NCBI GenBank assembly: GCA_965261735.1
Contig: OZ253470.1
Coordinates: forward strand, 3,232,001-3,296,000
Source of the DNA: Alphaproteobacteria bacterium
Lineage (GTDB): Bacteria > Pseudomonadota > Alphaproteobacteria > SHVV01
Direction: 5' to 3'
Length of the DNA stretch: 64,000 nucleotides
In this document: piece after piece, positions 14,088-40,365 of the stretch
How the letters are laid out: every line of letters begins with the position of its first letter
Position numbering within the stretch: the stretch's first letter is position 1
The notes under the pieces: model-generated
What the model was told of the DNA's origin: nothing
The model's input: the letters and a program-made list of their open reading frames with translations, nothing else
Database searches by the model: none
Made by a program: the position numbers and the translations under genes

Positions 14088-15192
14088 CTTGCCTATCCGG
14101 TTTACACCCACACCCACTAGGGCTTGAATGGGCGCAAACCGGATATAGGGGAGCGCGCCATGGATGTTCTCGACCGCGCCGATCTCCCATTCCCGCATTC
14201 GCTACCCGAGTTCCAGCGACTTTTCCCCGATGATGCGGCCTGCGCCGCCTACCTGGAGAAAGCCCGCTGGGGAGACGGCTTTGCCTGCCCGCACTGCGGC
14301 ACGGCGGGAGAGCCGTTCCACTTTGAAAACCGCCCTGGCGTCCTGCGCTGCCGCAAGTGCCGCCAGAACACCGGGCTGACGGTGGGAACAGTGATGGAGC
14401 GTAGCCACACTCCGCTGAACGTCTGGTTCTGGGCCGCTTATCTGGTCGCCAGTCAGACGCCCGGCATGTCCGCCGTGCAGTTTCAGCGGCAACTTGGTCT
14501 TTCGCGCTACGAGACGGCCTTTCAAATTCTCCACAAGCTCCGCTCGGGCATGGTGCGGCCCAACCAAGACAGGATCGGTGGACAGCCCAAGAACCATGTT
14601 GAGGTGGACGAAACCTGGGTTGGCGGGCGAACGCGTGGGGAAGGCCGTGGTGTTCACCACAAGGTTCCCGTCTCCTGTGCCATCGAGGTGCGTCATCGAA
14701 AGCCGGGCACCAAGCTCGACAACCGGAAAGACGGACGCTATGCCGGACGCGTTCGGCTCGCCGTCGTGCTCGACCGTAGCGCCGAGTCGCTCTGTGGGTT
14801 CGTCGAGAGCACCGTCGCGCCGCGATCGCTGATCGTTACTGACGATTGGAGCGGCTATGCTGGCCTCGGTAAGCGCGGCTATGAGCACTTCGCTGTTGCC
14901 GAGTGTGGTGATCCAGAGGTTGCCGAGCAATACCTGCCGATCATCCATCTGGTTTTCGCCAACCTGAAGACGTGGCTGATCGGTATCCACCACGGCGTTA
15001 GCCACCAGCACCTACAAGCCTACCTCAACGAGTTCACCTTCCGCTTCAACAGGCGGTTCTACCCGTTCAACGCCTTCCGCTCATTGCTCGGCATCGCGGG
15101 CGACACCTCTGCTCCAACCTATGCCGAGCTTTACTCGGGAGAGTGGCGGCACCCTACATGTAGCGGTCATGGGCGTTAACCGGATAGGCAAG
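14088..15192 (+). mobile_element. IS1595-family element
   Basis: TIR CTTGCCTATCCGGTT(T/A)AC(A/G)CCCA; 8-bp TSD GAACGACA at 14080-14087 and 15193-15200. Confidence 0.93.
14160..15179 (+). CDS. IS1595-family transposase
   Basis: CPHCG/CRKC zinc ribbon, VEVDETW, TDDWSGY, YLNEFTFRFNRR. Confidence 0.93.
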   Translation: MDVLDRADLPFPHSLPEFQRLFPDDAACAAYLEKARWGDGFACPHCGTAGEPFHFENRPGVLRCRKCRQNTGLTVGTVMERSHTPLNVWFWAAYLVASQTPGMSAVQFQRQLGLSRYETAFQILHKLRSGMVRPNQDRIGGQPKNHVEVDETWVGGRTRGEGRGVHHKVPVSCAIEVRHRKPGTKLDNRKDGRYAGRVRLAVVLDRSAESLCGFVESTVAPRSLIVTDDWSGYAGLGKRGYEHFAVAECGDPEVAEQYLPIIHLVFANLKTWLIGIHHGVSHQHLQAYLNEFTFRFNRRFYPFNAFRSLLGIAGDTSAPTYAELYSGEWRHPTCSGHGR

Positions 15193-20795: not shown

Positions 20796-21105
20796 GGCCC
20801 CTGGGGTTGGACAGGCGGCCTGAAATGACTTGACCGGCGCACTGGGCATTCGAAGGATCGACGCCCATGGCCAAGATGCCGTAATGGGGCTCGGCGCTCA
20901 CCGGCTACGTTTGAGCTATTGTCGATAGCGGAGATTCGGGTGTCGTTGCCCTTGCACGCGTAGCGTGTTCATGGGGTCTTGCCGAAAGGCGCGGCCCATA
21001 TCCTGGACAGGAAAGGGTATAATGGAATGGACGCCTCCCACCCCTGATGTTGGCCGACGGGAGGGTTGAGTTGGACCCTCGCGATCGCCGAGAGCCTCTA
21101 CTACA

Positions 21106-21212
21106 TCTATGGACGGCTCTCCCGTTGCAAGGGATGTTGATCTGAGCGACGTGGGTCAGTTGCAAACATCTATCCGGCATCACCCGTGACGGGGTGCCTA
21201 AATGGGGAATCC
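21106..21212 (-). mobile_element. Orphan right end of the IS1111-type element (partial bridge/seekRNA)
   Basis: Matches 27527-27633 with few substitutions. Confidence 0.85.
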
Positions 21213-24872: not shown

Positions 24873-25461
24873 TACCACGATGAGGCCTCCAGACCCCAAC
24901 ACGACCTCCACAAGATATGGTTGAAAAACGCCTCGCGGGCGACCAAGCCAAACCGGTGCCGTCTACAGCGCCTCTGGCTGGATCGATGTCGAAACCACCC
25001 TGGGCGGGGCGCCACGACCGGCACACCAAACGCGCCCAGCCCAAAAAGAACATCCGGCTCCGGCCCCTCAGAAAGACCGGAAGCGAATTCTCAATCAGTG
25101 AATCTACGCCGCGACCGGCGGGTTCGAGATGACTGCCTCAGTCAACTTGGGGGCGTGCCCGCCGCAGACTCGCGCCTCTCTACACGGCACCACCAAATCG
25201 TATCCGTTCGGCGAAGCCGTGATGGTCAGGGCGGACGGAGGCGGTGAACGGCCGCCTTGGCGGGAAATCGGCCGGCTGCGCGCTCCGACCTCTCGCGCCA
25301 GCCAGACGGTTCCACGGCTTGAACGAACGGATACCCAAATCTGGACCCGAACGGCCGCTGACGGATTCCGACGACAAACGCGCGCCCGGATGCCCTGGAG
25401 TTGGATTCAATCCGCTTTCGGCTTGATTACGGCACGCCCTACCGGGTCCTGCGGACGGCAC
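24873..25461. repeat. Non-coding repeat copy 2, containing a MITE
   Basis: Matches 7765-8211 plus a 142-bp insertion. Confidence 0.9.
25200..25334. mobile_element. 135-bp MITE
   Basis: 22-bp TIR GTATCCGTTCGnnnAAGCCGTG; CCAAATC duplicated at 25193-25199 and 25335-25341; single CCAAATC at 8085-8091. Confidence 0.8.
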
Positions 25462-25851
25462 GCCGCAAGGCGTTTGTCCGCAAGTGACGGCTGAAATGCA
25501 GGGCCGTCGCGGACAGCCTCGCAGAAGCGGGCGACAAGCTCTTTACCTTCACGCGCCTGTCCAAGAGCCAATGGAAATCAGCCCGAACGACCAACGCCAT
25601 TGAGCGTCTCAACGAGGAGTTCAAGCGCCGGATCAAAACACAGACCGTGCTGCCGTGTCCCGAAACAGTGCCGATACTCCTCTGGGCGCTCCTCGCTTCC
25701 GGCCAAATCCAGATGCGCAAAGTCGATGGATGGGAAACCCTCGATCAGCTAATCGCCGACGAAACCCTTGACCGCGCGGCCTGACCGCCGCAAAACTCAA
25801 CCCGCTCGGAGAGGCGCCAAAACCAATTTCCACCACTTTCGAGACACAACC
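25461..25851 (+). mobile_element. 3' fragment of IS256 type A with right TIR
   Basis: Matches 6486-6876; TGG>TGA nonsense change. Confidence 0.9.
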
Positions 25852-25988
25852 CATCGATGAGGTCTACAACTCACGACGTCTCCACTCCGCGCTCGGATAT
25901 CTGAGCCCGGTACAGTTCGAGGATCAACATGCCCGGCATACGGTCAAGGCCGCCGAGTGATCCTGTCCGGACATAGGGGCGCACTCCA
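25852..25988 (+). mobile_element. 3' end remnant of an IS3-family element
   Basis: [19 protein letters not shown], then a terminus ending GGGGCGCACTCCA. Confidence 0.75.
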
Positions 25989-26987: not shown

Positions 26988-27544
26988 GAAAACGCTCCTA
27001 TTATAACTGCCTCGACCACCTCGGCCGTGCTTCCACTACCGAAACCATTGCACATGCGGATTTTAGTGATTGCGGACAGTGATTTCACAAAGTCCCGGAC
27101 AGTTCTGACTGAGGGGACCTTGTTACTGACAACCTTGATTGTCTTCGGGTTTGGTTGTTTGGGTCAAGTCTGTTGTGGATTTTTAGGTGCGCAGGATAGG
27201 GGTCTGGTCATCGCGCGAGGTGCCATCGCGGGTGAACGACCCTGCGACGGTCGTCAGATCGTGCCCGCGGCAGAGTTGCGTGCGCAATTGACACAACTCC
27301 CGCTCCGTCGGACGGTGATCCTCCCCCATTGGATTGGTCCATCCTTAGGTTTGGGAATGAGGAGGACCAGCGATGGCAAGGAAGCGTTACAAGCCGGAGG
27401 ACATCGTCAGCCTGCTGCGGCAGGCGGAGGTTCTGCACGGCCAGGGCATGTCGATGGTGGACGCGATCTGACAGCTGGGAATCAGCGAGGTCACGTATTA
27501 CCTCTATGGACGGCTCTCCCGTTGCATCTATGGACGGCTCTCCC

Positions 27545-27750
27545 GTTGCAAGGGATGTTGATCTGAGCGACGTGGGTCAGTTGCAAACATCTATCCGGCA
27601 TCACCCATAGTGGGGTGCCCAAATGGGGAATCCGCGCGCACCCGCCTCTACAGCTGGTAGGCCTCAGAGGCCTCGATAATAGTCAGGCTCGTGGCGCGCC
27701 GGTCCGACCTGTGCAGCTCATTTCGTCATCGTCTCGCAACCTCGTAGTGG
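27545..27750 (-). ncRNA. Predicted bridge RNA / seekRNA
   Basis: Two stem-loops whose internal-loop segments match the target and the donor junction (see findings); transcript ends unknown. Confidence 0.75.
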
Positions 27751-28673
27751 GCCCTCAGCCAGCGGCGCGGTAGGCTCCGCCGCTCCGAAGCACGGCCCAG
27801 ATGATCCGTGCGTTCTTGTTGGCGACGGCCACCGTGGCCCGGTTGAAGCCACGCCGCCGGTGAAGCTGGTTGACCCAGGTGTTGAAGGGATCCGCCTTTC
27901 CTGCCGCCGTGCGGACGACGGATCGGGCGCCATGCACGAGCAGGGATCTCAGGTGCTGGCTGCCGCGTTTGGAGATGCCGAGCAGGACGGTGCGCTGACC
28001 GCTGGAGTGCTGGCGTGGGACAAGCCCGACCCAAGCGGCGAGGTGGCGGCCGTTCTTGAACTCCGTACCATCGCCGATGGCGGCGATGACCGCGGTGGCG
28101 GTCTTGGGCCCCACCCCCTTGATGCGGGCGATCCGCTGGCAGTCCTCCGACGCGCGGAACACTCGCTCGATCTTCTTGTCGAAGCTGGCGATCCTGAGAT
28201 CCAGGTCCCTGAACAGGTCGTGGAGTTCGCCGATCGCCTCGCGGGCCAGGGCGGTCAACTCGTTCTCCTCATCGGTGAGGATCTCCGGAATCATCCGACG
28301 CGCCCTGGTGATGCTCTTTGGGAAGGCGATGCCGCGATCGAGCAGGAGCCCGCGGATCTGACTGACCACGGCGGTGCGGTGGTTGACCATGCGCTGACGA
28401 GCCCGATGCAGAGCCTGGATGTCCTGCTGCTCGATCGACTTCTTCGGCACGAAGCGCATGTGCGCCTGTCGGGCTTCTGGCGCCGCACGAAGGGCTTCAC
28501 GTATTGGGGGCTGATAATCTTCACCTTGTGCCCGAGCTCCTCGAACTTCCGTTGCCAATAAAAGGCCCCGGTGCAGGCTTCGATGGCGATGGTGCAGGGC
28601 TCGATCTGGACGATGACCTGGAGCAGCTGGTCGCGCATCACGCGACGCTTCAGAATGAGGCGGCCGTTACGGT

Positions 28674-30067
28674 GGTTGTGTCTCGAAAGTGGTGGAAATT
28701 GGTTTTGGCGCCTCTCCGAGCGGGTTGAGTTTTGCGGCGGTCAGGCTGCGCGGTCAAGGGTTTCGTCGGCGATTAGCTGATCGAGGGTTTCCCATCCATC
28801 GACTTTGCGCATCTGGATTTGGCCGGAAGCGAGGAGTGCCCAGAGGAGCATCGGCACTGTTTCGGGACACGGCAGCACGGTCTGTGTTTTGATCCGGCGC
28901 TTGAACTCCTCGTTGAGACGCTCAATGGCGTTGGTCGTTCGGGCTGATTTCCATTGGCTCTTGGACAGGCGCGTGAAGGTAAAGAGCTTGTCGCCCGCTT
29001 CTGCGAGGCTGTCCGCGACGGCCCTGCATTTCAGCCGCCACTTGCGGACAAACGCCTTGCGGCGGGTTTCCACCTCGGAGGCAGTGTCGGCATAGATCAT
29101 ATCGCGGTAATCTTCGCTCAGCTCGTCATGCATGTGTTTGGGAGCATGACCCAGAAGGTTGCGGTGCTTGTGCACGGTGCAGCGTTGAACGGGAAGGTCA
29201 TCGCCCCAAAGCGCCGACAGAGCCGCCTCCAGTCCCGGCGCGCCATCGACGATGACAAACCCGGGCCGTTTCAGTCCACGCGCATCAAGGTCGTCGAGGA
29301 ACTGGCGCCACGCCGCCTGGCTTTCTCCGCCCATATTCCCGATCGAAAGCAAGACCTTCTGGCCATCCCGGCGCACCCCTATAGCCGCGAGAACCGAGAT
29401 GTTGGTGGCCTTGCGGTCCAGTCGGGTCTTGATCACAGTGCCGTCAAGGATCAGCCGAACGATATCCTCATCCGCGAGGCCACGGCTGCACCAGGCGTCC
29501 CAATCGACCTTCACCTTGCGCCACGCCCGGCTCACAACGTCCTTGCTCACAGCACCCCGGAAGAGCCCGAACAGCGCGCGTTTCACCCGCCGCGTGTTGG
29601 TTCCGGACAGATACACCGAAGCGATCAGCGCCTCGGCCTTTCTGGTCAGCCGCTGGTAGCGCGGCAGCGCCCGCGAACGCCATTCCGACGCCCGACCGTC
29701 TTCCTCAACGATCCGCGCACGCGGCACGCTCACCCTCTCGGTCCCGAATGTCCCCGTCAGTTGCCGCTCCCGGTGCCCGTTCCGATACCCTTGCCGAAGC
29801 GCGTCCTCTCGACCGTATCGGCAGCGCCCGAGAAACTGCGCAAGTTCCTCCTCAAAAACGGCCTCGATCGTGGATCTGATGTTCTCCCGCAGCCGGTCCT
29901 CGAGCGGATCATAGCCGGCGTCATTGGCCAGTAGCGAAAGCGCGGAAGTCTCGGTAGTGTTCTTCATGGCGTGATCTCCTTGGCGGTGCTAGCCGCCGAT
30001 TGGGTGGTTGTCTTGTCACCCGGAGATTACGCCATCCTCAAATTTCCACCACTTTCGAGACACAGCC
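28674..30067 (-). mobile_element. IS256 type A, intact copy
   Basis: Same TIRs as 3832-6876; 8-bp TSD GTTACGGT at 28666-28673 and 30068-30075. Confidence 0.95.
28741..29967 (-). CDS. IS256-family transposase
   Basis: Same protein as 5583-6809 except QRC versus QHC. Confidence 0.95.
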   Translation of the reverse strand: MKNTTETSALSLLANDAGYDPLEDRLRENIRSTIEAVFEEELAQFLGRCRYGREDALRQGYRNGHRERQLTGTFGTERVSVPRARIVEEDGRASEWRSRALPRYQRLTRKAEALIASVYLSGTNTRRVKRALFGLFRGAVSKDVVSRAWRKVKVDWDAWCSRGLADEDIVRLILDGTVIKTRLDRKATNISVLAAIGVRRDGQKVLLSIGNMGGESQAAWRQFLDDLDARGLKRPGFVIVDGAPGLEAALSALWGDDLPVQRCTVHKHRNLLGHAPKHMHDELSEDYRDMIYADTASEVETRRKAFVRKWRLKCRAVADSLAEAGDKLFTFTRLSKSQWKSARTTNAIERLNEEFKRRIKTQTVLPCPETVPMLLWALLASGQIQMRKVDGWETLDQLIADETLDRAA

Positions 30068-30764
30068 GTTACGGTTGACGCCATGGAGTTGGAACACAGT
30101 CTTGGCGATATCGATGCCGAGTGTCTCGATGGTCATGGTCTCCTCCTCGATACGTTCAGGCCCTCAGGATGAAGCGGTGGAGGGAGAGCCGTCCATCCCA
30201 TTAGCTGGCGCAAGGAGTACGGCGGGATGAGCGGCGATCAGCGTCGCCGCCTCAAGGAGCTTGAGAAGGAGAACGAGCGGCTGCGCCGCGCGGTCTCGGA
30301 CCTGACGCTGAACAAGCAGATTCTCAAGGAGGCGGCCCGGGGAAACTTGTGAGCCCCTCGCGTCGTCGCCAGTGCATCGACCATGTCCGTGGCCGGCTCG
30401 GGATCTCGGAACGGTGTGCCTGCCGGGTGCTGGGGCAGCACCGCTCGACCCAGCGCCGTATCCCGCGCGGCCACGACGACGAGGATCGTCTGGTCGCGGA
30501 CATGATCGAGCTGGCTCGCCGCTATGGCCGTTACGGCTATCGCCGGATCGCGGCTCTGCTGCGCGACACCGGCTGGCAGGTCAAACGACAAGCGGGTCGA
30601 ACGCCTGTGGCGGCGCGAGGGGCTGAAGGTGCCCGGCAAGCAACCGAAGCGGGGCCGGCTCTGGCTCAACGACGTATCCTGCGTCCGGCTCCGCGCCGAG
30701 CGGGCCGACCATGTCTGATCCTATGACTTTGTGCATCACCGGACCCATGATGGCCGGGCCTTTC

Positions 30765-32275: not shown

Positions 32276-33724
32276 GGTCGTGTCCCAGGACGTGGTGTAG
32301 GAGTTGTTGGAGCCTCTGTTAGCTGTGGGTAGGCGGCTTGCCGTAGCGACCGCCGAGAGTCTGGCGTAGGCAAGCCGGCTATCCACAGCGGAGGCCATCG
32401 CGGTTCCGGTTTAGGGTTGGGCTAGTGCAAACCAACCTGACCCGAAGGAGAACCACGATGACCCAGGACATGATGACCCTGCGCGCGCTTTTGGAGAAGA
32501 GCTCCGATGCCGATCTGCTTTGCGAGATGATCGGCTTCACGGCCGAGCGGCTGATGGCACTGGAGGTTGAGGGCCTGACCGGCGCCGGGCACGGCGAGCG
32601 CTCGGCGGATCGTATCACCCATCGCAACGGCTACCGCGACCGGTCCTGGGAGACGCGGGCCGGCACGGTCGAGCTGAAGATCCCGAAGCTGAGGAAGGGA
32701 AGCTACTTCCCGGGCTTCCTGGAGCCGCGGCGGATGGCCGAGAAGGCGCTGGCTGCGGTGATCCAGGAGGCCTACATCCAGGGGGTGTCGACCCGCTCGG
32801 TCGACGATCTGGTTCAGGCGATGGGGATGTCGGGCGCCTCCAAGAGCCAGGTCTCCAGGCTGTGCGGCGAGATCGACGATAAGGTCAACGGCTTCCTCGA
32901 TCGACCGCTGGAGGGCGACTGGCCCTATCTGTGGCTCGACGCCACCTACGTGAAGGTGCGCCAGACCGGACGCATCGTCTCGGTCGCGGTGACCGTGGCT
33001 GTGGCCGTCAACGACCAAGGCCGCCGCGAGGTCCTGGGCGTGGCGATCGGCGCGTCGGAGGCCGAGACCTTCTGGACCGAGTTCCTGCGCTCGCTGGCCC
33101 GGCGCGGGCTGCGCGGCGTGAAGCTGGTGATCTCCGACGACCACAAGGGCCTGAAGGCCGCCGCGACCCGGATCCTCGGCGCCACATGGCAGCGCTGCCG
33201 CGTGCACTTCGCCCGCAACCTGCTGGCCCATGCCGGCCGCCAGGGCCGGCGCGTCGTCTCCGCCTTCGTCGCCACCGCCTTCGCCCAGGAGGACGCCGAC
33301 AGCGCGAAGGTCCAGTGGCGCCAGGTCGCCGACCAGCTCAGGCCCAAGGTGCCCAAGCTGGCAGTTCTCATGGACGAAGCCGAGCACGACGTCCTCGCTT
33401 ACATGAGCTTCCCCAGGGAGCACCGCCAGAAATTGCACTCCACAAACCCGATCGAACGGCTCCATGCCGAGGTCAAGCGTCGCACCAACGTCGTCGGTAT
33501 CTTTCCCAACGAAGCCGCCATCACACGGCTCGTCGGCGCCATCCTTCTCGAGCAGAACGACGAGTGGGCCGTCTCAAGGAGATACATGACGCTGGAATCC
33601 ATCGCTCCGCTGAGCGATGGTGTCCCCATCACGCTGCCCACCGTGGCAGCCTGAACGTCCCGGCCCTACCCGCCGGGAGCCGCGTAGAGCGCAACGCTCT
33701 TACACCACTCCGCGGGACACGATC
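32276..33724 (+). mobile_element. IS256-family element type B
   Basis: TIR GGTCGTGTCCC / GGGACACGATC; 8-bp TSD CTCGCGCG at 32268-32275 and 33725-33732. Confidence 0.95.
32458..33654 (+). CDS. IS256-family transposase
   Basis: [44 protein letters not shown]. Confidence 0.95.
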
Positions 33725-37328: not shown

Positions 37329-39636
37329 AAACCGGATATAGGGGAGCGCGCCATGGATGTTCTCGACCGCGCCGATCTCCCATTCCCGCATTCGCTACCC
37401 GAGTTCCAGCGACTTTTCCCCGATGATGCGGCCTGCGCCGCCTACCTGGAGAAAGCCCGCTGGGGAGACGGCTTTGCCTGCCCGCACTGCGGCACGGCGG
37501 GAGAGCCGTTCCACTTTGAAAACCGCCCTGGCGTCCTGCGCTGCCGCAAGTGCCGCCAGAACACCGGGCTGACGGTGGGAACAGTGATGGAGCGTAGCCA
37601 CACTCCGCTGAACGTCTGGTTCTGGGCCGCTTATCTGGTCGCCAGTCAGACGCCCGGCATGTCCGCCGTGCAGTTTCAGCGGCAACTTGGTCTTTCGCGC
37701 TACGAGACGGCCTTTCAAATTCTCCACAAGCTCCGCTCGGGCATGGTGCGGCCCAACCAAGACAGGATCGGTGGACAGCCCAAGAACCATGTTGAGGTGG
37801 ACGAAACCTGGGTTGGCGGGCGAACGCGTGGGGAAGGCCGTGGTGTTCACCACAAGGTTCCCGTCTCCTGTGCCATCGAGGTGCGTCATCGAAAGCCGGG
37901 CACCAAGCTCGACAACCGGAAAGACGGACGCTATGCCGGACGCGTTCGGCTCGCCGTCGTGCTCGACCGTAGCGCCGAGTCGCTCTGTGGGTTCGTCGAG
38001 AGCACCGTCGCGCCGCGATCGCTGATCGTTACTGACGATTGGAGCGGCTATGCTGGCCTCGGTAAGCGCGGCTATGAGCACTTCGCTGTTGCCGAGTGTG
38101 GTGGGTCGTGTCCCAGGACGTGGTGTAGGAGTTGTTGGAGCCTCTGTTAGCTGTGGGTAGGCGGCTTGCCGTAGCGACCGCCGAGAGTCTGGCGTAGGCA
38201 AGCCGGCTATCCACAGCGGAGGCCATCGCGGTTCCGGTTTAGGGTTGGGCTAGTGCAAACCAACCTGACCCGAAGGAGAACCACGATGACCCAGGACATG
38301 ATGACCCTGCGCGCGCTTTTGGAGAAGAGCTCCGATGCCGATCTGCTTTGCGAGATGATCGGCTTCACGGCCGAGCGGCTGATGGCACTGGAGGTTGAGG
38401 GCCTGACCGGCGCCGGGCACGGCGAGCGCTCGGCGGATCGTATCACCCATCGCAACGGCTACCGCGACCGGTCCTGGGAGACGCGGGCCGGCACGGTCGA
38501 GCTGAAGATCCCGAAGCTGAGGAAGGGGAGCTACTTCCCGGGCTTCCTGGAGCCGCGGCGGATGGCCGAGAAGGCGCTGGCTGCGGTGATCCAGGAGGCC
38601 TACATCCAGGGGGTGTCGACCCGCTCGGTCGACGATCTGGTTCAGGCGATGGGGATGTCGGGCGCCTCCAAGGAGCCAGGTCTCCAGGCTGTGCGGCGAG
38701 ATCGACGATAAGGTCAACGGCTTCCTCGATCGACCGCTGGAGGGCGACTGGCCCTATCTGTGGCTCGACGCCACCTACGTGAAGGTGCGCCAGACCGGAC
38801 GCATCGTCTCGGTCGCGGTGACCGTGGCTGTGGCCGTCAACGACCAAGGCCGCCGCGAGGTCCTGGGCGTGGCGATCGGCGCGTCGGAGGCCGAGACCTT
38901 CTGGACCGAGTTCCTGCGCTCGCTGGCCCGGCGCGGGCTGCGCGGCGTGAAGCTGGTGATCTCCGACGACCACAAGGGCCTGAAGGCCGCCGCGACCCGG
39001 ATCCTCGGCGCCACATGGCAGCGCTGCCGCGTGCACTTCGCCCGCAACCTGCTGGCCCATGCCGGCCGCCAGGGCCGGCGCGTCGTCTCCGCCTTCGCCC
39101 AGGAGGACGCCGACAGCGCGAAGGTCCAGTGGCGCCAGGTCGCCGACCAGCTCAGGCCCAAGGTGCCCAAGCTGGCAGTTCTCATGGACGAAGCCGAGCA
39201 CGACGTCCTCGCCTACATGAGCTTCCCCAGGGAGCACCGCCAGAAATTGCACTCCACAAACCCGATCGAACGGCTCCATGCCGAGGTCAAGCGTCGCACC
39301 AACGTCGTCGGTATCTTTCCCAACGAAGCCGCCATCACACGGCTCGTCGGCGCCATCCTTCTCGAGCAGAACGACGAGTGGGCCGTCTCAAGGAGATACA
39401 TGACGCTGGAATCCATCGCTCCGCTGAGCGATGGTGTCCCCATCACGCTGCCCACCGTGGCAGCCTGAACGTCCCGGCCCTACCCGCCGGGAGCCGCGTA
39501 GAGCGCAACGCTCTTACACCACTCCGCGGGACACGATCGTGTGGTGATCCAGAGGTTGCCGAGCAATACCTGCCGATCATCCATCTGGTTTTCGCCAACC
39601 TGAAGACGTGGCTGATCGGTATCCACCACGGCGTTA
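37329..39636 (+). mobile_element. Second IS1595 copy, lacking both ends and interrupted by IS256 type B
   Basis: Matches 14136-15001 on either side of the insertion. Confidence 0.9.
38104..39538 (+). mobile_element. IS256 type B, second copy with inactivated transposase
   Basis: TSD GTGTGGTG at 38096-38103 and 39539-39546; +1 G near 38672 and a 15-bp deletion near 39090 relative to copy 1. Confidence 0.93.
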
Positions 39637-40365
39637 GTCATAGGACCAGACGTGATTGGGCCAGCACGGCCGCAGACGGATGCAGGATCCGTCGTTGAGC
39701 CACAGCCTGCCCCGTTTCGGTTGCTTCTGTGGGACCTTCAGCCCCTCCCGCCACCAGATGCGCTGGACCCGCTTGGCGTTCACGTGCCAACCTTCGGTCC
39801 TGAGCAAGGCAGTGATCCGCCGATAGCCATATCTGCCATACTGGCTGGTCAAGCGGATGATCGCGGCCGTGAGTGCCTCTTCATCATCCCGACCACGGGG
39901 TCTCTTGCGCTGGGTTGAGCGATGTTGGCCTGCAACAGCACAGGCACGTCGCTCGGAGATTCCCAATTCGGCCTGGAGATGATCAACACACTGCCGGCGA
40001 CGGGCGGGGCTTAGCAGTTTCCCTCAAGCGCCTCTTTCAAGATCAGCTTATCCAACGTCAGATCCGAGATCGCCTTCCGGAGACGGCCATTCTCCTTCTC
40101 CAGGTCCTTCAGACGCTTGGCCTGGTCAGTACGAAGGCCGCCATATTCCTTGCGCCAGCGATAGTAACTCTGCTCCGATACGCCGAGCGTGCGACAAGCT
40201 TGACCAATGGACTGGCCCTGCGCCAAGGCCACCTCGGCTTCGCGCAACATGCTGATAATCTGTTCTGGGGTGTAGCGTTTACGGCTCATTTTGTCCTCCT
40301 TTCGAGGGGGCAAAATGCGCCAAACTCTCTTAACAAATTTGGACCACTTTTAGGGGGTCACTCCA
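39636..40365 (-). mobile_element. 5' half of an IS3-family (IS407-like) element: orfA 40011-40289 and partial orfB
   Basis: Left end TGGAGTGACCCCC; MSRKRYTPEQ...SYYRWRKEYGG; GGGAAAC at the orfA/orfB overlap; YGYRRI, NHVWSYD. Confidence 0.88.

What the first reader, a model, noticed from the sequence alone, without database searches (positions are those of the whole stretch)
27495..27750. IS1111 bridge/seekRNA apparently programmed against the YYRW codons of IS3 orfA
Seen: removing 27503-30203 restores GTATTACC^GCTGG in IS3 orfA; joining the element ends gives TCCCATTA^TCTAT. The minus-strand non-coding segment has two loops in guide-hairpin-guide order. Loop 1: CUAUUAUCG (27682-27674), hairpin AGGCCTC/GAGGCCT (27659-27673), then CCAGC (27657-27653), matching the left and right target arms. 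Loop 2: CCCAUU (within 27629-27621), hairpin (27597-27619), then AUAGAU (27594-27589), matching the donor junction. Established: IS110/IS1111 recombinases use such RNAs. Inference: guide U residues sit at Tyr third-codon positions, so G-U wobble would accept both TAT and TAC, giving an RNA-guided element that parasitises a conserved coding motif of another IS family. Target and donor share no core dinucleotide (C^G versus A^T).
Basis: partly seen in the sequence, partly recalled or inferred. Interest (0 to 1): 0.85.

Follow-up and report, generated by a model that had tools for sequence, protein, structure and literature searches.

The report
RNA-guided IS1111 element targeting IS3 orfA
A broken copy of a small RNA-guided jumping gene sits inside another jumping gene, and its relatives in many bacteria hit the same conserved coding spot with guide RNAs that change in step with the spot: a known mechanism with a target class I did not find described.

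Summary
Window 27503-30203 (minus strand) is an IS1111-family element. It has 15-bp subterminal inverted repeats, 7-nt and 3-nt terminal extensions, no target duplication and a 228-nt non-coding region 3' of the transposase gene. It splits an IS3-family orfA at TAT TAC C^GC TGG.

This copy is dead. An IS256-type element interrupts the transposase gene, there is a deletion with frameshift near codon 90, and the right end carries a 24-bp duplication.

Of 79 related loci, 47 have both ends. With the window copy these form 37 independent flank groups, and I judged 32 to lie at the same [YF]Y[RK]W codon position of diverse IS3 orfAs. The two loop-1 guides co-vary with the flanks (0 of 20000 permutations). 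One relative, L064, sits at a non-IS3 site that its changed guides match at 13 of 14 positions.

A 34-sequence consensus structure with compensatory changes places all four segments in internal loops. Guide U at Tyr third-codon positions is found at both TAT and TAC targets. The donor loop matches the end junction but is invariant, so it is untested.

The kind is known: seekRNA/bridge RNA, and ISEc21 targets IS3 orfB. I found no description of the orfA-targeting clade. Verdict: supported, a new member of a known kind.

The parts
27373..27502 (+). IS3-family orfA, 5' part, ending ...TAT TAC C. It carries an in-frame TGA at 27469-27471.
   Evidence: Upstream flank pieces of homologs match HTH_Tnp_1 to profile position 41. 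Close relatives have C at 27469.
27503..30203 (-). IS1111-family insertion sequence, including its nested IS256-type insertion.
27503..27526 (-). Extra tandem copy of the last 24 nt of the right end.
   Evidence: D1. Absent from the 47 homologs with both ends and from relatives' contigs, which leave the element at 27527.
27527..27754 (-). Non-coding region, 228 nt, 3' of tnp. It encodes the predicted long seekRNA/bridge RNA plus the right end.
27674..27682 (-). Target guide 1, CUAUUAUCG. It pairs with the strand carrying CGGTAATAC, that is the right flank plus one base across the cut.
   Evidence: Unpaired in the consensus structure.
27659..27673 (-). Hairpin between the two target guides (AGGCC / GGCCU).
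   Evidence: helix 7; 2 pairs with compensatory change.
27653..27657 (-). Target guide 2, CCAGC. It has the same sense as the left flank. The following U equals the first base of LE.
27637..27698 (-). Target-binding module closed by stems 27698-27693/27642-27637 and 27688-27685/27647-27644.
   Evidence: helix 5: 6 of 6 pairs with compensatory changes.
27583..27635 (-). Putative donor-binding module. It has an outer stem 27635-27630/27588-27583, a loop with CCCAUU (within 27629-27620), a hairpin 27619-27597 and a loop with AUAGAU (27594-27589).
   Evidence: It is complementary to the RE|LE junction, but both partners are invariant.
27506..27520 (.). Right subterminal inverted repeat (outer copy). 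The inner copy lies at 27530-27544.
   Evidence: I2, I3; 15 nt, 100% complementary.
30182..30196 (.). Left subterminal inverted repeat. The 7-nt extension TAATGGG (tnp sense) lies at 30197-30203.
27755..28474 (-). Transposase C-terminal part (Transposase_20 domain, GLVPRQHSSG motif).
28468..28674 (-). Transposase residues about 21-89, in a different frame. About 10 residues around 90-99 of the intact homolog are missing.
   Evidence: tblastn with the intact L019 protein.
28674..30067 (-). Nested IS256-type (Mutator family) element with 27-nt inverted repeats. Its transposase gene lies at 28741-29967.
   Evidence: I1.
30059..30136 (-). Transposase N-terminal 26 residues (MTIETLGIDIAK...).
30204..30352 (+). 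IS3-family orfA, 3' part (GC TGG CGC AAG ...), followed by a decayed orfB.
   Evidence: HTH_Tnp_1 profile positions 43-74; HTH_21 in orfB.

Best explanation
Window 27503-30203 is a now immobile copy of an IS1111-family insertion sequence. Its 3' non-coding region encodes a two-module seekRNA/bridge RNA.

**Module 1 (shown by comparison).** This is an internal loop with two guides on either side of a hairpin. The 5' guide (9 nt) pairs with one DNA strand of the right flank plus one base across the cut. The 3' guide (5 nt) pairs with the other strand of the left flank. Together they specify the IS3-family orfA sequence that encodes [YF]Y[RK]W. The element enters between the first and second base of the R/K codon, always antisense to orfA, without target duplication.

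**U residues (inferred).** U residues opposite third codon positions let one guide accept TAT and TAC.

**Module 2 (inferred).** It has the same guide-hairpin-guide layout and is complementary to the abutted RE|LE junction. It would hold the circular donor.

**Junction promoter (inferred).** Joining the ends would create a promoter: TTGCAA in RE, a 17-nt spacer, then GATAAT across the junction. This would drive tnp and the RNA.

The whole clade uses IS3 copies as its landing site.
For: **Family features**
- 15-bp perfect subterminal repeats and 7/3-nt extensions.
- IS110-family RNA-guided transposase: NCBIfam NF033542, 232.7 bits; Pfam PF02371.
- The intact homolog L019 has both PF01548 and PF02371.

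**Shared target site**
- 47 of the 79 related loci have both ends. With the window copy these form 37 flank groups at 90% identity, with median identity between groups of 0.39.
- By my reading, 32 of the 37 groups lie at the same codon position of recognisable IS3 orfAs.
- 16 of 29 upstream 38-residue flank pieces match HTH_Tnp_1.

**Guide-flank matching**
- Own pairs match at 12.53 of 14 positions, against 10.78 (sd 0.23) after permutation; 0 of 20000 permutations reach the observed value, over 36 unique pairs.
- Per position: guide position 8 A-A 12 of 12 and C-C 18 of 20; position 9 A-A 10 of 10 and G-G 20 of 21; 3' guide position 5 C-C 20 of 21 and T-T 10 of 10.
- L064 sits at a non-IS3 site, CCAATACA^CTTGC, with guides CCAAUACAC and CCAAG.
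- Four elements whose compared 1040-nt tnp region is identical sit in four different flanks, all fitting the one guide set.

**Structure**
- 96.1% of cells are paired. The covariation score is 0.239 against 0.138 in shuffles (0 of 500 reach it), and 0.02-0.06 in slid controls.
- All four guide segments are unpaired.

**Agreement with published IS1111 seekRNAs**
- The order (top-strand match 5' of the bottom-strand match) and the overlap of the matches in the target agree with PMC11187229, section 9.

**Own genome**
- Eight empty orfA sites in the window's genome match the guides at 8 of 9 and 5 of 5 positions.
Against: - This copy is broken in at least three ways, so nothing here shows present activity.
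- No RNA ends or strand are known. Only contigs from RNA libraries of relatives cover the region.
- The donor module shows no covariation within the clade. Both guides and ends are nearly invariant, and 4 elements have GCCAUU against AATGGG.
- For ISEc11, an 82-nt RNA carrying the target matches sufficed.
- Some elements fit poorly: L051, L020, L062 and L059.
- Phylogenetically independent contrasts are few. There are 2 for the AA guide state, both concordant, with sign-test median p 0.5; the position-3 test gave a median p of 0.125.
- The permutation test treats the pairs as independent.
- Single-sequence folding is not better than shuffles (z -1.29).
Confidence: 0.82

Rival explanations
1. 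Only loop 1 is a guide. Loop 2 is a protein-binding or processing scaffold, or part of a precursor that is trimmed away. Its complementarity to the end junction is a by-product of conserved end sequences, and the subterminal repeats are read by the protein.
For: - The 82-nt ISEc11 seekRNA was sufficient and worked better than the 154-nt form (PMC11187229 section 10).
- The authors state that end recognition may differ in IS1111.
- There is no covariation in loop 2 across the 40 unique sequences.
Against: - Both loop-2 segments sit in an internal loop with the same guide-hairpin-guide layout as loop 1.
- Together they cover 12 contiguous bases of the RE|LE junction.
- A donor-type pair arose in only 18 of 20000 shuffles.
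- A second IS1111 family in the same genome has ACACACG in its non-coding region, matching its own RE|LE junction.
- Durrant et al. predict donor-binding nucleotides in IS1111 RNAs.
Confidence: 0.3
2. The shared site reflects descent rather than targeting. One ancient insertion into an IS3 spread as an IS3::IS1111 composite, so relatives are found at the same place because they were inherited there.
For: - In one metagenome-assembled genome (G001), all 8 identical IS3 copies and one 84%-identical copy carry the element. Movement of a composite could produce this.
- Flank groups of 4, 8 and 2 members exist.
Against: - There are 37 flank groups with a median identity of 0.39, and the orfA pieces are only 6-35% identical to the first one. 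The elements themselves are far more alike (47-93% protein identity across the 79 loci).
- Guides track the codon differences.
- L064 and L037 lie outside IS3 genes at sites that fit their guides.
- The insertion breaks orfA, which the composite would need.
Confidence: 0.05
3. The transposase protein itself recognises the orfA DNA motif, and the RNA complementarity is coincidental.
For: The target is a conserved motif, so the baseline match of any guide to any target is already high (10.73 of 14 for non-own pairs).
Against: - Own pairs exceed all 20000 permutations.
- All five states at guide positions 8-9 (CG, AA, AG, AC, CA) are each found with the matching target state.
- Published experiments show RNA dependence for this family.
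Confidence: 0.03

Closest known systems
IS1111-family elements with a seekRNA: ISEc11, ISKpn4, ISPst6, ISPa11 (Siddiquee et al. 2024, PMC11187229; outline and sections 4, 6, 8, 9, 10, 13, 14 read)
   Same: - Subterminal inverted repeats and 7/3-nt extensions.
- Non-coding region downstream of tnp.
- Top-strand match placed 5' of the bottom-strand match, with the two overlapping in the target.
- No target duplication.
- Natural reprogramming between relatives.
   Different: - The target is the [YF]Y[RK]W coding site of IS3-family orfA, not an attC site, a REP or a short linear site.
- A second loop complementary to the end junction is evident here.
- This particular copy is dead.
ISEc21, an IS110-type element that targets IS3-family transposase codons around the second D of DDE (PMC11187229 section 12 and the preprint legend of Extended Data Fig. 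11; passages read)
   Same: A DEDD, RNA-guided element that uses a conserved coding motif of IS3-family elements as its landing site.
   Different: - ISEc21 is IS110 type, with an upstream non-coding region, reversed guide order and no long subterminal repeats.
- It hits orfB (catalytic domain), not the orfA helix-turn-helix region.
IS621 bridge RNA (Durrant et al. 2024, PMC11208160, section 12 and passages read; the structural companion PMC11208158 seen in search listings only)
   Same: Two internal loops, each with two guides that read opposite DNA strands, one loop for the target and one for the donor.
   Different: - IS621 carries the RNA in the left end, upstream of tnp.
- IS621 needs a core dinucleotide shared by donor and target (CT; recalled from memory, not read in a call).
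- Here the bases at the cut differ (C^G against A^T) in the window and across relatives.
IS4321/IS5075, which target Tn21-family terminal repeats (Partridge and Hall 2003; seen only as a citation, paper not held)
   Same: IS1111-family elements that land in a conserved sequence of another mobile element.
   Different: Their target is a non-coding terminal repeat. I could not read the paper.

Membership tests
IS1111 family (IS110 superfamily) | DEDD (RuvC-like) N-terminal domain plus a PF02371 C-terminal domain. | tested here: met
   - PF02371, E 1.7e-25.
- NF033542, 232.7 bits against a cut-off of 140.
- The N-terminal part survives only in pieces.
- The intact homolog L019 has both PF01548 and PF02371.
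IS1111 family (IS110 superfamily) | Subterminal inverted repeats of about 11-13 bp or more. | tested here: met
   15 nt, 100% complementary (I2/I3). Conserved in the homologs.
IS1111 family (IS110 superfamily) | Terminal extensions of 7 bp (left) and 3 bp (right) beyond the repeats. | tested here: met
   TAATGGG and AGA. The definition comes from PMC11187229, section 4.
IS1111 family (IS110 superfamily) | Longer non-coding region downstream of tnp. | tested here: met
   228 nt downstream, against about 45 nt between the left repeat and the start codon.
IS1111 family (IS110 superfamily) | GL-P----S(t)G motif in the C-terminal domain. | tested here: met
   GLVPRQHSSG in the 267-residue ORF. The motif is as given in PMC11187229, section 6.
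IS1111 family (IS110 superfamily) | No target duplication; site- and orientation-specific insertion. | tested here: met
   The flanks abut without loss or gain. The orientation is the same in all homologs.
IS1111-type seekRNA | Segment complementary to the top strand placed 5' of the segment complementary to the bottom strand, with the matches overlapping in the target. | tested here: met
   The 9-nt and 5-nt guides overlap by one base. They co-vary with the flanks.
IS1111-type seekRNA | RNA from the non-coding region co-purifies with the transposase and is needed for circle formation and insertion. | not testable with these tools
   Only contigs from RNA libraries of relatives cover the region. 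These give no strand, no ends and no binding data.
IS1111 family (IS110 superfamily) | Circular intermediate with abutted ends that forms a junction promoter. | not testable with these tools
   The sequence offers TTGCAA, a 17-nt spacer, and GATAAT across the RE|LE junction. This is read and is an inference only.
IS621-type bridge RNA | Donor-binding loop whose guides co-vary with the element ends. | tested here: inconclusive
   Complementarity is present, but both the guides and the ends are invariant.
IS621-type bridge RNA | Core dinucleotide shared by target and donor. | tested here: not met
   The window has C^G against A^T. In relatives, LE starts with T and RE ends with A, while the target bases at the cut vary.
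IS621-type bridge RNA | RNA encoded in the left end, upstream of tnp. | tested here: not met
   The RNA region lies downstream of tnp.
IS3 family orfA (the target) | HTH_Tnp_1 domain, followed by an orfB with HTH_21. | tested here: met
   - The downstream piece matches profile positions 43-74.
- orfB has HTH_21.
- The intact paralog scores E 5.9e-21 and matches NF033516 in its N-terminal part.

The most novel reading that the evidence does not exclude
This clade is a dedicated parasite of IS3-family elements. Its guides place U at synonymous codon positions, so that one RNA covers many IS3 lineages. It can fill every copy of an IS3 in a genome (9 of 9 in one metagenome-assembled genome). It recombines without any donor-target core identity, which would make IS1111-type systems freer to program than IS621.
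Probability: 0.4. Interest if true: 0.65.

Novelty: new member of a known kind. Interest (0 to 1): 0.5.

Why it matters
- **A natural rule book for IS1111-type guides.** The clade shows a 9-nt plus 5-nt guide arrangement with a one-base overlap at the cut. It tolerates rU·dG, and in some cases rG·dT or single mismatches. It needs no shared core. Several natural re-aimings are documented, which is useful to people engineering these recombinases.
- **A second route for this superfamily into IS3.** Conserved coding motifs of IS3 elements serve as abundant, dispensable and mobile landing sites: orfA here, orfB for ISEc21.
- **Annotation.** It explains split IS3 orfA pseudogenes.

Tried and rejected
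- **Rfam 15.** The search with permissive E-values over 27300-30400 found no family.
- **Single-sequence fold.** The 258-nt fold gave z -1.29 and pairs 4 nt of guide 1. I relied on the alignment instead.
- **Empty copy of this IS3 in the window's genome.** No identical copy exists, only paralogs about 70% identical. I used these paralogs and relatives' contigs as the empty-site reference.
- **Donor-loop covariation within the clade.** Uninformative.
- **Fold of the second IS1111 family's non-coding region.** The single-sequence fold was not interpretable. Only its sequence matches are reported.
- **Tree-based independent contrasts.** Too few to reach significance.
- **The look-up of sequencing runs.** No run holds half of the sampled words.
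- **Read laying.** Parts of the stretch without cover in the four RNA-library runs mean nothing, and contigs give no strand or ends.
- **Not used.** Complex prediction, structure prediction and the large protein searches; nothing in the question needed them.
- **Literature.** Searches for an IS1111 element aimed at IS3 orfA found none, within a library that lacks most subscription journals.
- **Unavailable sources.** Partridge and Hall 2003 (PMC219399) is not held.
Full report
**What is there**

Window 27373-30352 holds an IS3-family orfA that is split after TAT TAC C (27502) and resumes with GC TGG CGC AAG (30204). The orfA also has a nonsense codon at 27469-27471. Contigs of close relatives read C at 27469.

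The inserted 2701 bp (27503-30203) is an IS1111-family element on the minus strand.
- It has perfect 15-nt subterminal inverted repeats at 30182-30196 and 27506-27520.
- A 7-nt extension, TAATGGG, lies at the left end, and a 3-nt extension, AGA, at the right end.
- There is no target duplication.
- A 228-nt non-coding region follows the transposase stop codon.
- The transposase matches NCBIfam 'IS110 family RNA-guided transposase' (232.7 bits against a cut-off of 140) and Pfam PF02371.
- It carries GLVPRQHSSG, the GL-P----SG motif named for this family in PMC11187229, section 6.

**This copy cannot move**

Comparison with the intact 338-residue protein of locus L019 gave three pieces:
- residues 1-26 at 30136-30059;
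- residues 21-89 at 28674-28468, in another frame;
- residues 100-330 at 28474-27782.

About ten residues are therefore missing, with a frameshift. An IS256-type element with 27-nt inverted repeats lies between the first two pieces (28674-30067; Pfam Transposase_mut). The last 24 nt of the right end are also duplicated in tandem (27503-27526 = 27527-27550).

The genome holds no other full copy. It holds three remnants.

**Check of the observation**

The cut is confirmed in three ways.
- The upstream and downstream orfA pieces match HTH_Tnp_1 up to profile position 41 and from position 43.
- An intact paralog in the window (40011-40313, minus; HTH_Tnp_1, E 5.9e-21) aligns without a gap when anchored at the cut, with 65 of 120 and 95 of 140 identical bases.
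- Contigs of close IS3 relatives run through the site as Y Y R W R K E Y and F Y R W R K E Y.

In 20000 dinucleotide shuffles of the non-coding region, a target-type guide pair appeared 170 times, a donor-type pair 18 times, and both once. I set these thresholds after seeing the data.

**Relatives**

A scan of one genome per species with the 267-residue C-terminal ORF returned 79 loci. They come from Alphaproteobacteria, some Gamma- and 'delta'-proteobacterial assemblies, a Burkholderiales assembly and a Planctomycetota assembly.

Fifty loci gave a pair of subterminal repeats. I dropped three of them (L052, L093, L096) as false pairs, which leaves 47. With the window copy these 48 elements form 37 flank groups at 90% identity. 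The median identity between groups is 0.39.

Reading the translated flanks, I judged 32 of the 37 groups to lie in recognisable IS3-type orfAs of several subtypes:
- ...TYYrWRKEYGG
- ...ATFYkWKSKYGG
- ...RATFYrWYDRY
- ...MYYsWSKEFLEAG

In every case the insertion lies between the first and second base of the codon after the second aromatic residue, and the element is antisense to orfA.

The other five groups are as follows.
- L064 is a different site.
- L037 has the DNA motif outside an IS3 gene.
- L021 is unclear.
- L059 is off by one base.
- L083 has extra bases at both junctions.

Sixteen of 29 stop-free upstream 38-residue pieces match HTH_Tnp_1 at E up to 0.01. Six further pieces with stop codons were not scanned.

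**Guides follow targets**

In an alignment of the non-coding regions, the columns of CUAUUAUCG and CCAGC vary while their surroundings are conserved. I compared 37 rows with their flanks.

Over the 36 unique pairs, own pairs match at 12.53 of 14 positions when wobble is allowed. Non-own pairs match at 10.73, and permuted sets at 10.78 (sd 0.23). None of 20000 permutations reached the observed value. Without wobble the figures are 11.42 against 9.22, again 0 of 20000. The result held after I dropped four rows with uncertain junctions (L059, L083, L090, L020).

Per position, on those 32 pairs:

| Guide position | Matches |
|---|---|
| 5' guide, position 8 | A with A 12 of 12; C with C 18 of 20 |
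| 5' guide, position 9 | A with A 10 of 10; G with G 20 of 21; C with C 1 of 1 |
| 5' guide, position 3 | A with A 16 of 17; T with T 13 of 15 |
| 3' guide, position 5 | C with C 20 of 21; T with T 10 of 10 |

Examples:
- L045: CUUUUAUAA / CCACU at CTTTTACA^AGTGG.
- L053: GCUGUAUAA at ACTGTACA^A.
- L064: CCAAUACAC / CCAAG at CCAATACA^CTTGC, a site that is not IS3.

Poor fits exist: L051, L020 and L062.

On a tree built from 1040 nt starting just inside the left repeat (mostly tnp, guides excluded), the guide state at positions 8-9 changes five times. Independent contrasts are few. For the AA state there are 2, which went the same way in most pairings and never the opposite way (average 1.8 concordant, 0.2 with no difference in the target). 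For position 3 there are 5, concordant in 3.9 on average and discordant in 0.1. The sign tests are not significant on their own.

Four elements identical over this region (L035, L037, L038, L085) sit in four different flanks, and all four flanks fit their single guide set.

**Wobble**

Guide position 7 faces the third base of the second Tyr codon. It is U in 29 of 32 pairs, where the target has C 16 times and T 13 times. It is C in 3 pairs, and there the target is always C.

Position 4 is U in 26 pairs, with target T 16 times, C 9 times and A once.

Elements carrying the window's exact guide set are found at TAT and TAC in both codons. It remains observational.

**Structure**

RNAalifold on 34 distinct sequences, followed by pair counting, gave these figures:
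- 96.1% of cells are paired.
- The covariation score is 0.239 against 0.138 in shuffles (0 of 500 reach it), and 0.02-0.06 when partners are slid.

*Module 1.* Stems 27698-27693/27642-27637 (6 of 6 pairs with compensatory changes) and 27688-27685/27647-27644 enclose an internal loop. The 5' side of the loop holds guide 1. A hairpin lies at 27673-27659. The 3' side holds guide 2.

*Module 2.* An invariant stem, 27635-27630/27588-27583, encloses a loop containing CCCAUU, a hairpin at 27619-27597 whose tip varies with visible compensating changes, and a loop containing AUAGAU.

Two outer long-range helices close the whole structure. One of them shows 14 GC-to-AU double changes.

The guide order and the one-base overlap in the target match what Siddiquee et al. 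describe for IS1111 seekRNAs.

**Donor loop**

CCCAUU is complementary to bases 2-7 of the left end. AUAGAU equals the last five bases of the right end plus the first base of the left end. Together they cover 12 contiguous bases of the abutted junction.

Both the guides and the ends are nearly invariant in the clade. Four elements have GCCAUU against AATGGG. The donor loop is therefore neither supported nor contradicted by covariation.

A second IS1111 family in the same genome (14 left ends) has ACACACG in its non-coding region, matching its own RE|LE junction. It also has CCGAACGG, a hairpin, then GUAAC, matching its flanks G[TC]AAC^CG...

For ISEc11, the short RNA with the target matches alone sufficed. 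The role of loop 2 is therefore an inference.

**No shared core**

The left end starts with T and the right end finishes with A in nearly all relatives. The target bases at the cut vary: C^G, T^T, C^T and others in transposase orientation. This differs from IS621. It agrees with the statement that IS1111 elements make no duplication.

The U that follows guide 2 is invariant and equals the first base of the left end. Guide 2 plus this U therefore matches the left junction after insertion. Siddiquee et al. report that the flanks are needed for excision.

**Promoter**

The conserved CTTGCAAC in the right end, a 17-nt spacer, then GA|TAAT across the junction would form a junction promoter of the kind described for this family (passages in PMC12288879). 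This is an inference. The window's outer duplicated copy changes the would-be -35 hexamer to ATGCAA.

**Ecology**

The window's genome has eight empty orfA sites, AGTTACTATC^GCTGG, that fit the guides at 8 of 9 and 5 of 5 positions. This is expected if the element died.

In the assembly that holds L045, all 8 identical copies of the host IS3 and one 84%-identical copy carry the element. Repeated targeting and movement of a composite cannot be told apart there.

Klebsiella pneumoniae IncFIB plasmids carry a 62%-identical relative whose left end abuts ...WKKKFGG of an orfA.

**Known or new**

RNA-guided targeting by IS1111 and IS110 elements is established (PMC11187229; PMC11208160).

Siddiquee et al. 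already report an IS110-type element, ISEc21, aimed at the IS3-family codons around the second D of DDE. Using an IS3 coding motif as a target is therefore not new.

My five searches found no description of an IS1111 clade aimed at the orfA [YF]Y[RK]W site, or of wobble at synonymous positions. The supplements of both key papers, ISfinder and Partridge and Hall 2003 were out of reach.

I file this as a new member of a known kind.

Noticed in passing
window 27503-27550: The last 24 nt of the right end are duplicated in tandem. None of the 47 homologs with both ends shows this. Relatives' contigs leave the element at 27527. The outer copy alters the would-be -35 of a junction promoter. The origin is unknown.
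   Followed up: partly
window 21021-21212: A 109-bp fragment of the same element (right end plus donor loop, 95% identical) abuts CTCTACTACA^, which reads ...IAESLYY like another IS3 orfA subtype. Just upstream (21021-21042) lies the left end of a different IS1111-like element (TAATGGA-ATGGACGCCTCCCAC).
   Followed up: partly
G000 C1 4306764-4307131 (L003 about 1500-1870): A remnant in which the hairpin, guide 2 and donor-loop segment is inverted relative to the transposase 3' end. The break falls exactly where guide 1 would be. It lies next to an IS3 orfB-like YGYRR sequence.
   Followed up: no
G000 C1 3582951-3583003: A 53-bp left-end fragment of the element (94% identical) with flank ^GTTGG.
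   Followed up: no
G000, 14 places (for example C1 1544448): A second, multi-copy IS1111-family element, about 1.37 kb. Its left end reads ..CGATGGG-GTGGACGCCCC and its right end GGGGCGTCCAC-ACA, with flanks G[TC]AAC^CG... Its non-coding region has CCGAACGG, a hairpin, then GUAAC(CGAU), and also ACACACG, which matches its own end junction.
   Followed up: partly
G001 (genome of L045), loci L099-L107: All 8 identical copies of one IS3, and a ninth copy 84% identical, carry the IS1111 relative at the orfA site. No empty copy was found.
   Followed up: partly
L097 (Klebsiella pneumoniae IncFIB plasmid), about 1480-2720: A 62%-identical relative whose left end abuts an IS3 orfA (...WKKKFGG). Its non-coding region diverges right after the target loop, so the donor loop and right end seem lost. 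tblastn found relatives of this transposase, mostly under 60% identical, in at least 5000 plasmid records.
   Followed up: partly
window 40011-40313 (minus) and seven other places in G000: Eight intact or partial IS3 orfA copies with the empty site AGTTACTATC^GCTGG, which fits the dead element's guides at 8 of 9 and 5 of 5 positions.
   Followed up: yes
G000 genome-wide; 2 copies in the window (near 14306 and 37499): A repeat with a 40-nt core, GGGAGAGCCGTTCCAC..., occurs 168 times (up to 3 mismatches) in both orientations. It looks like a REP or MITE. It showed up only because it resembles the subterminal repeat.
   Followed up: no
window 25400-25900, 28674-30067, 32425-33654, 38250-39470: Several Mutator/IS256-type transposase genes and fragments lie in the same 15 kb. 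The region is a dense patch of decayed insertion sequences.
   Followed up: no
run X16, contig record 10 laid on window 27527-27723: A contig from an RNA library holds the right end and both RNA modules of a relative, but continues into unrelated sequence at 27723 instead of a transposase gene. Its flank (..GTTACAACT^) fits the guide poorly. It may be a transposase-less derivative or an assembly chimera.
   Followed up: no
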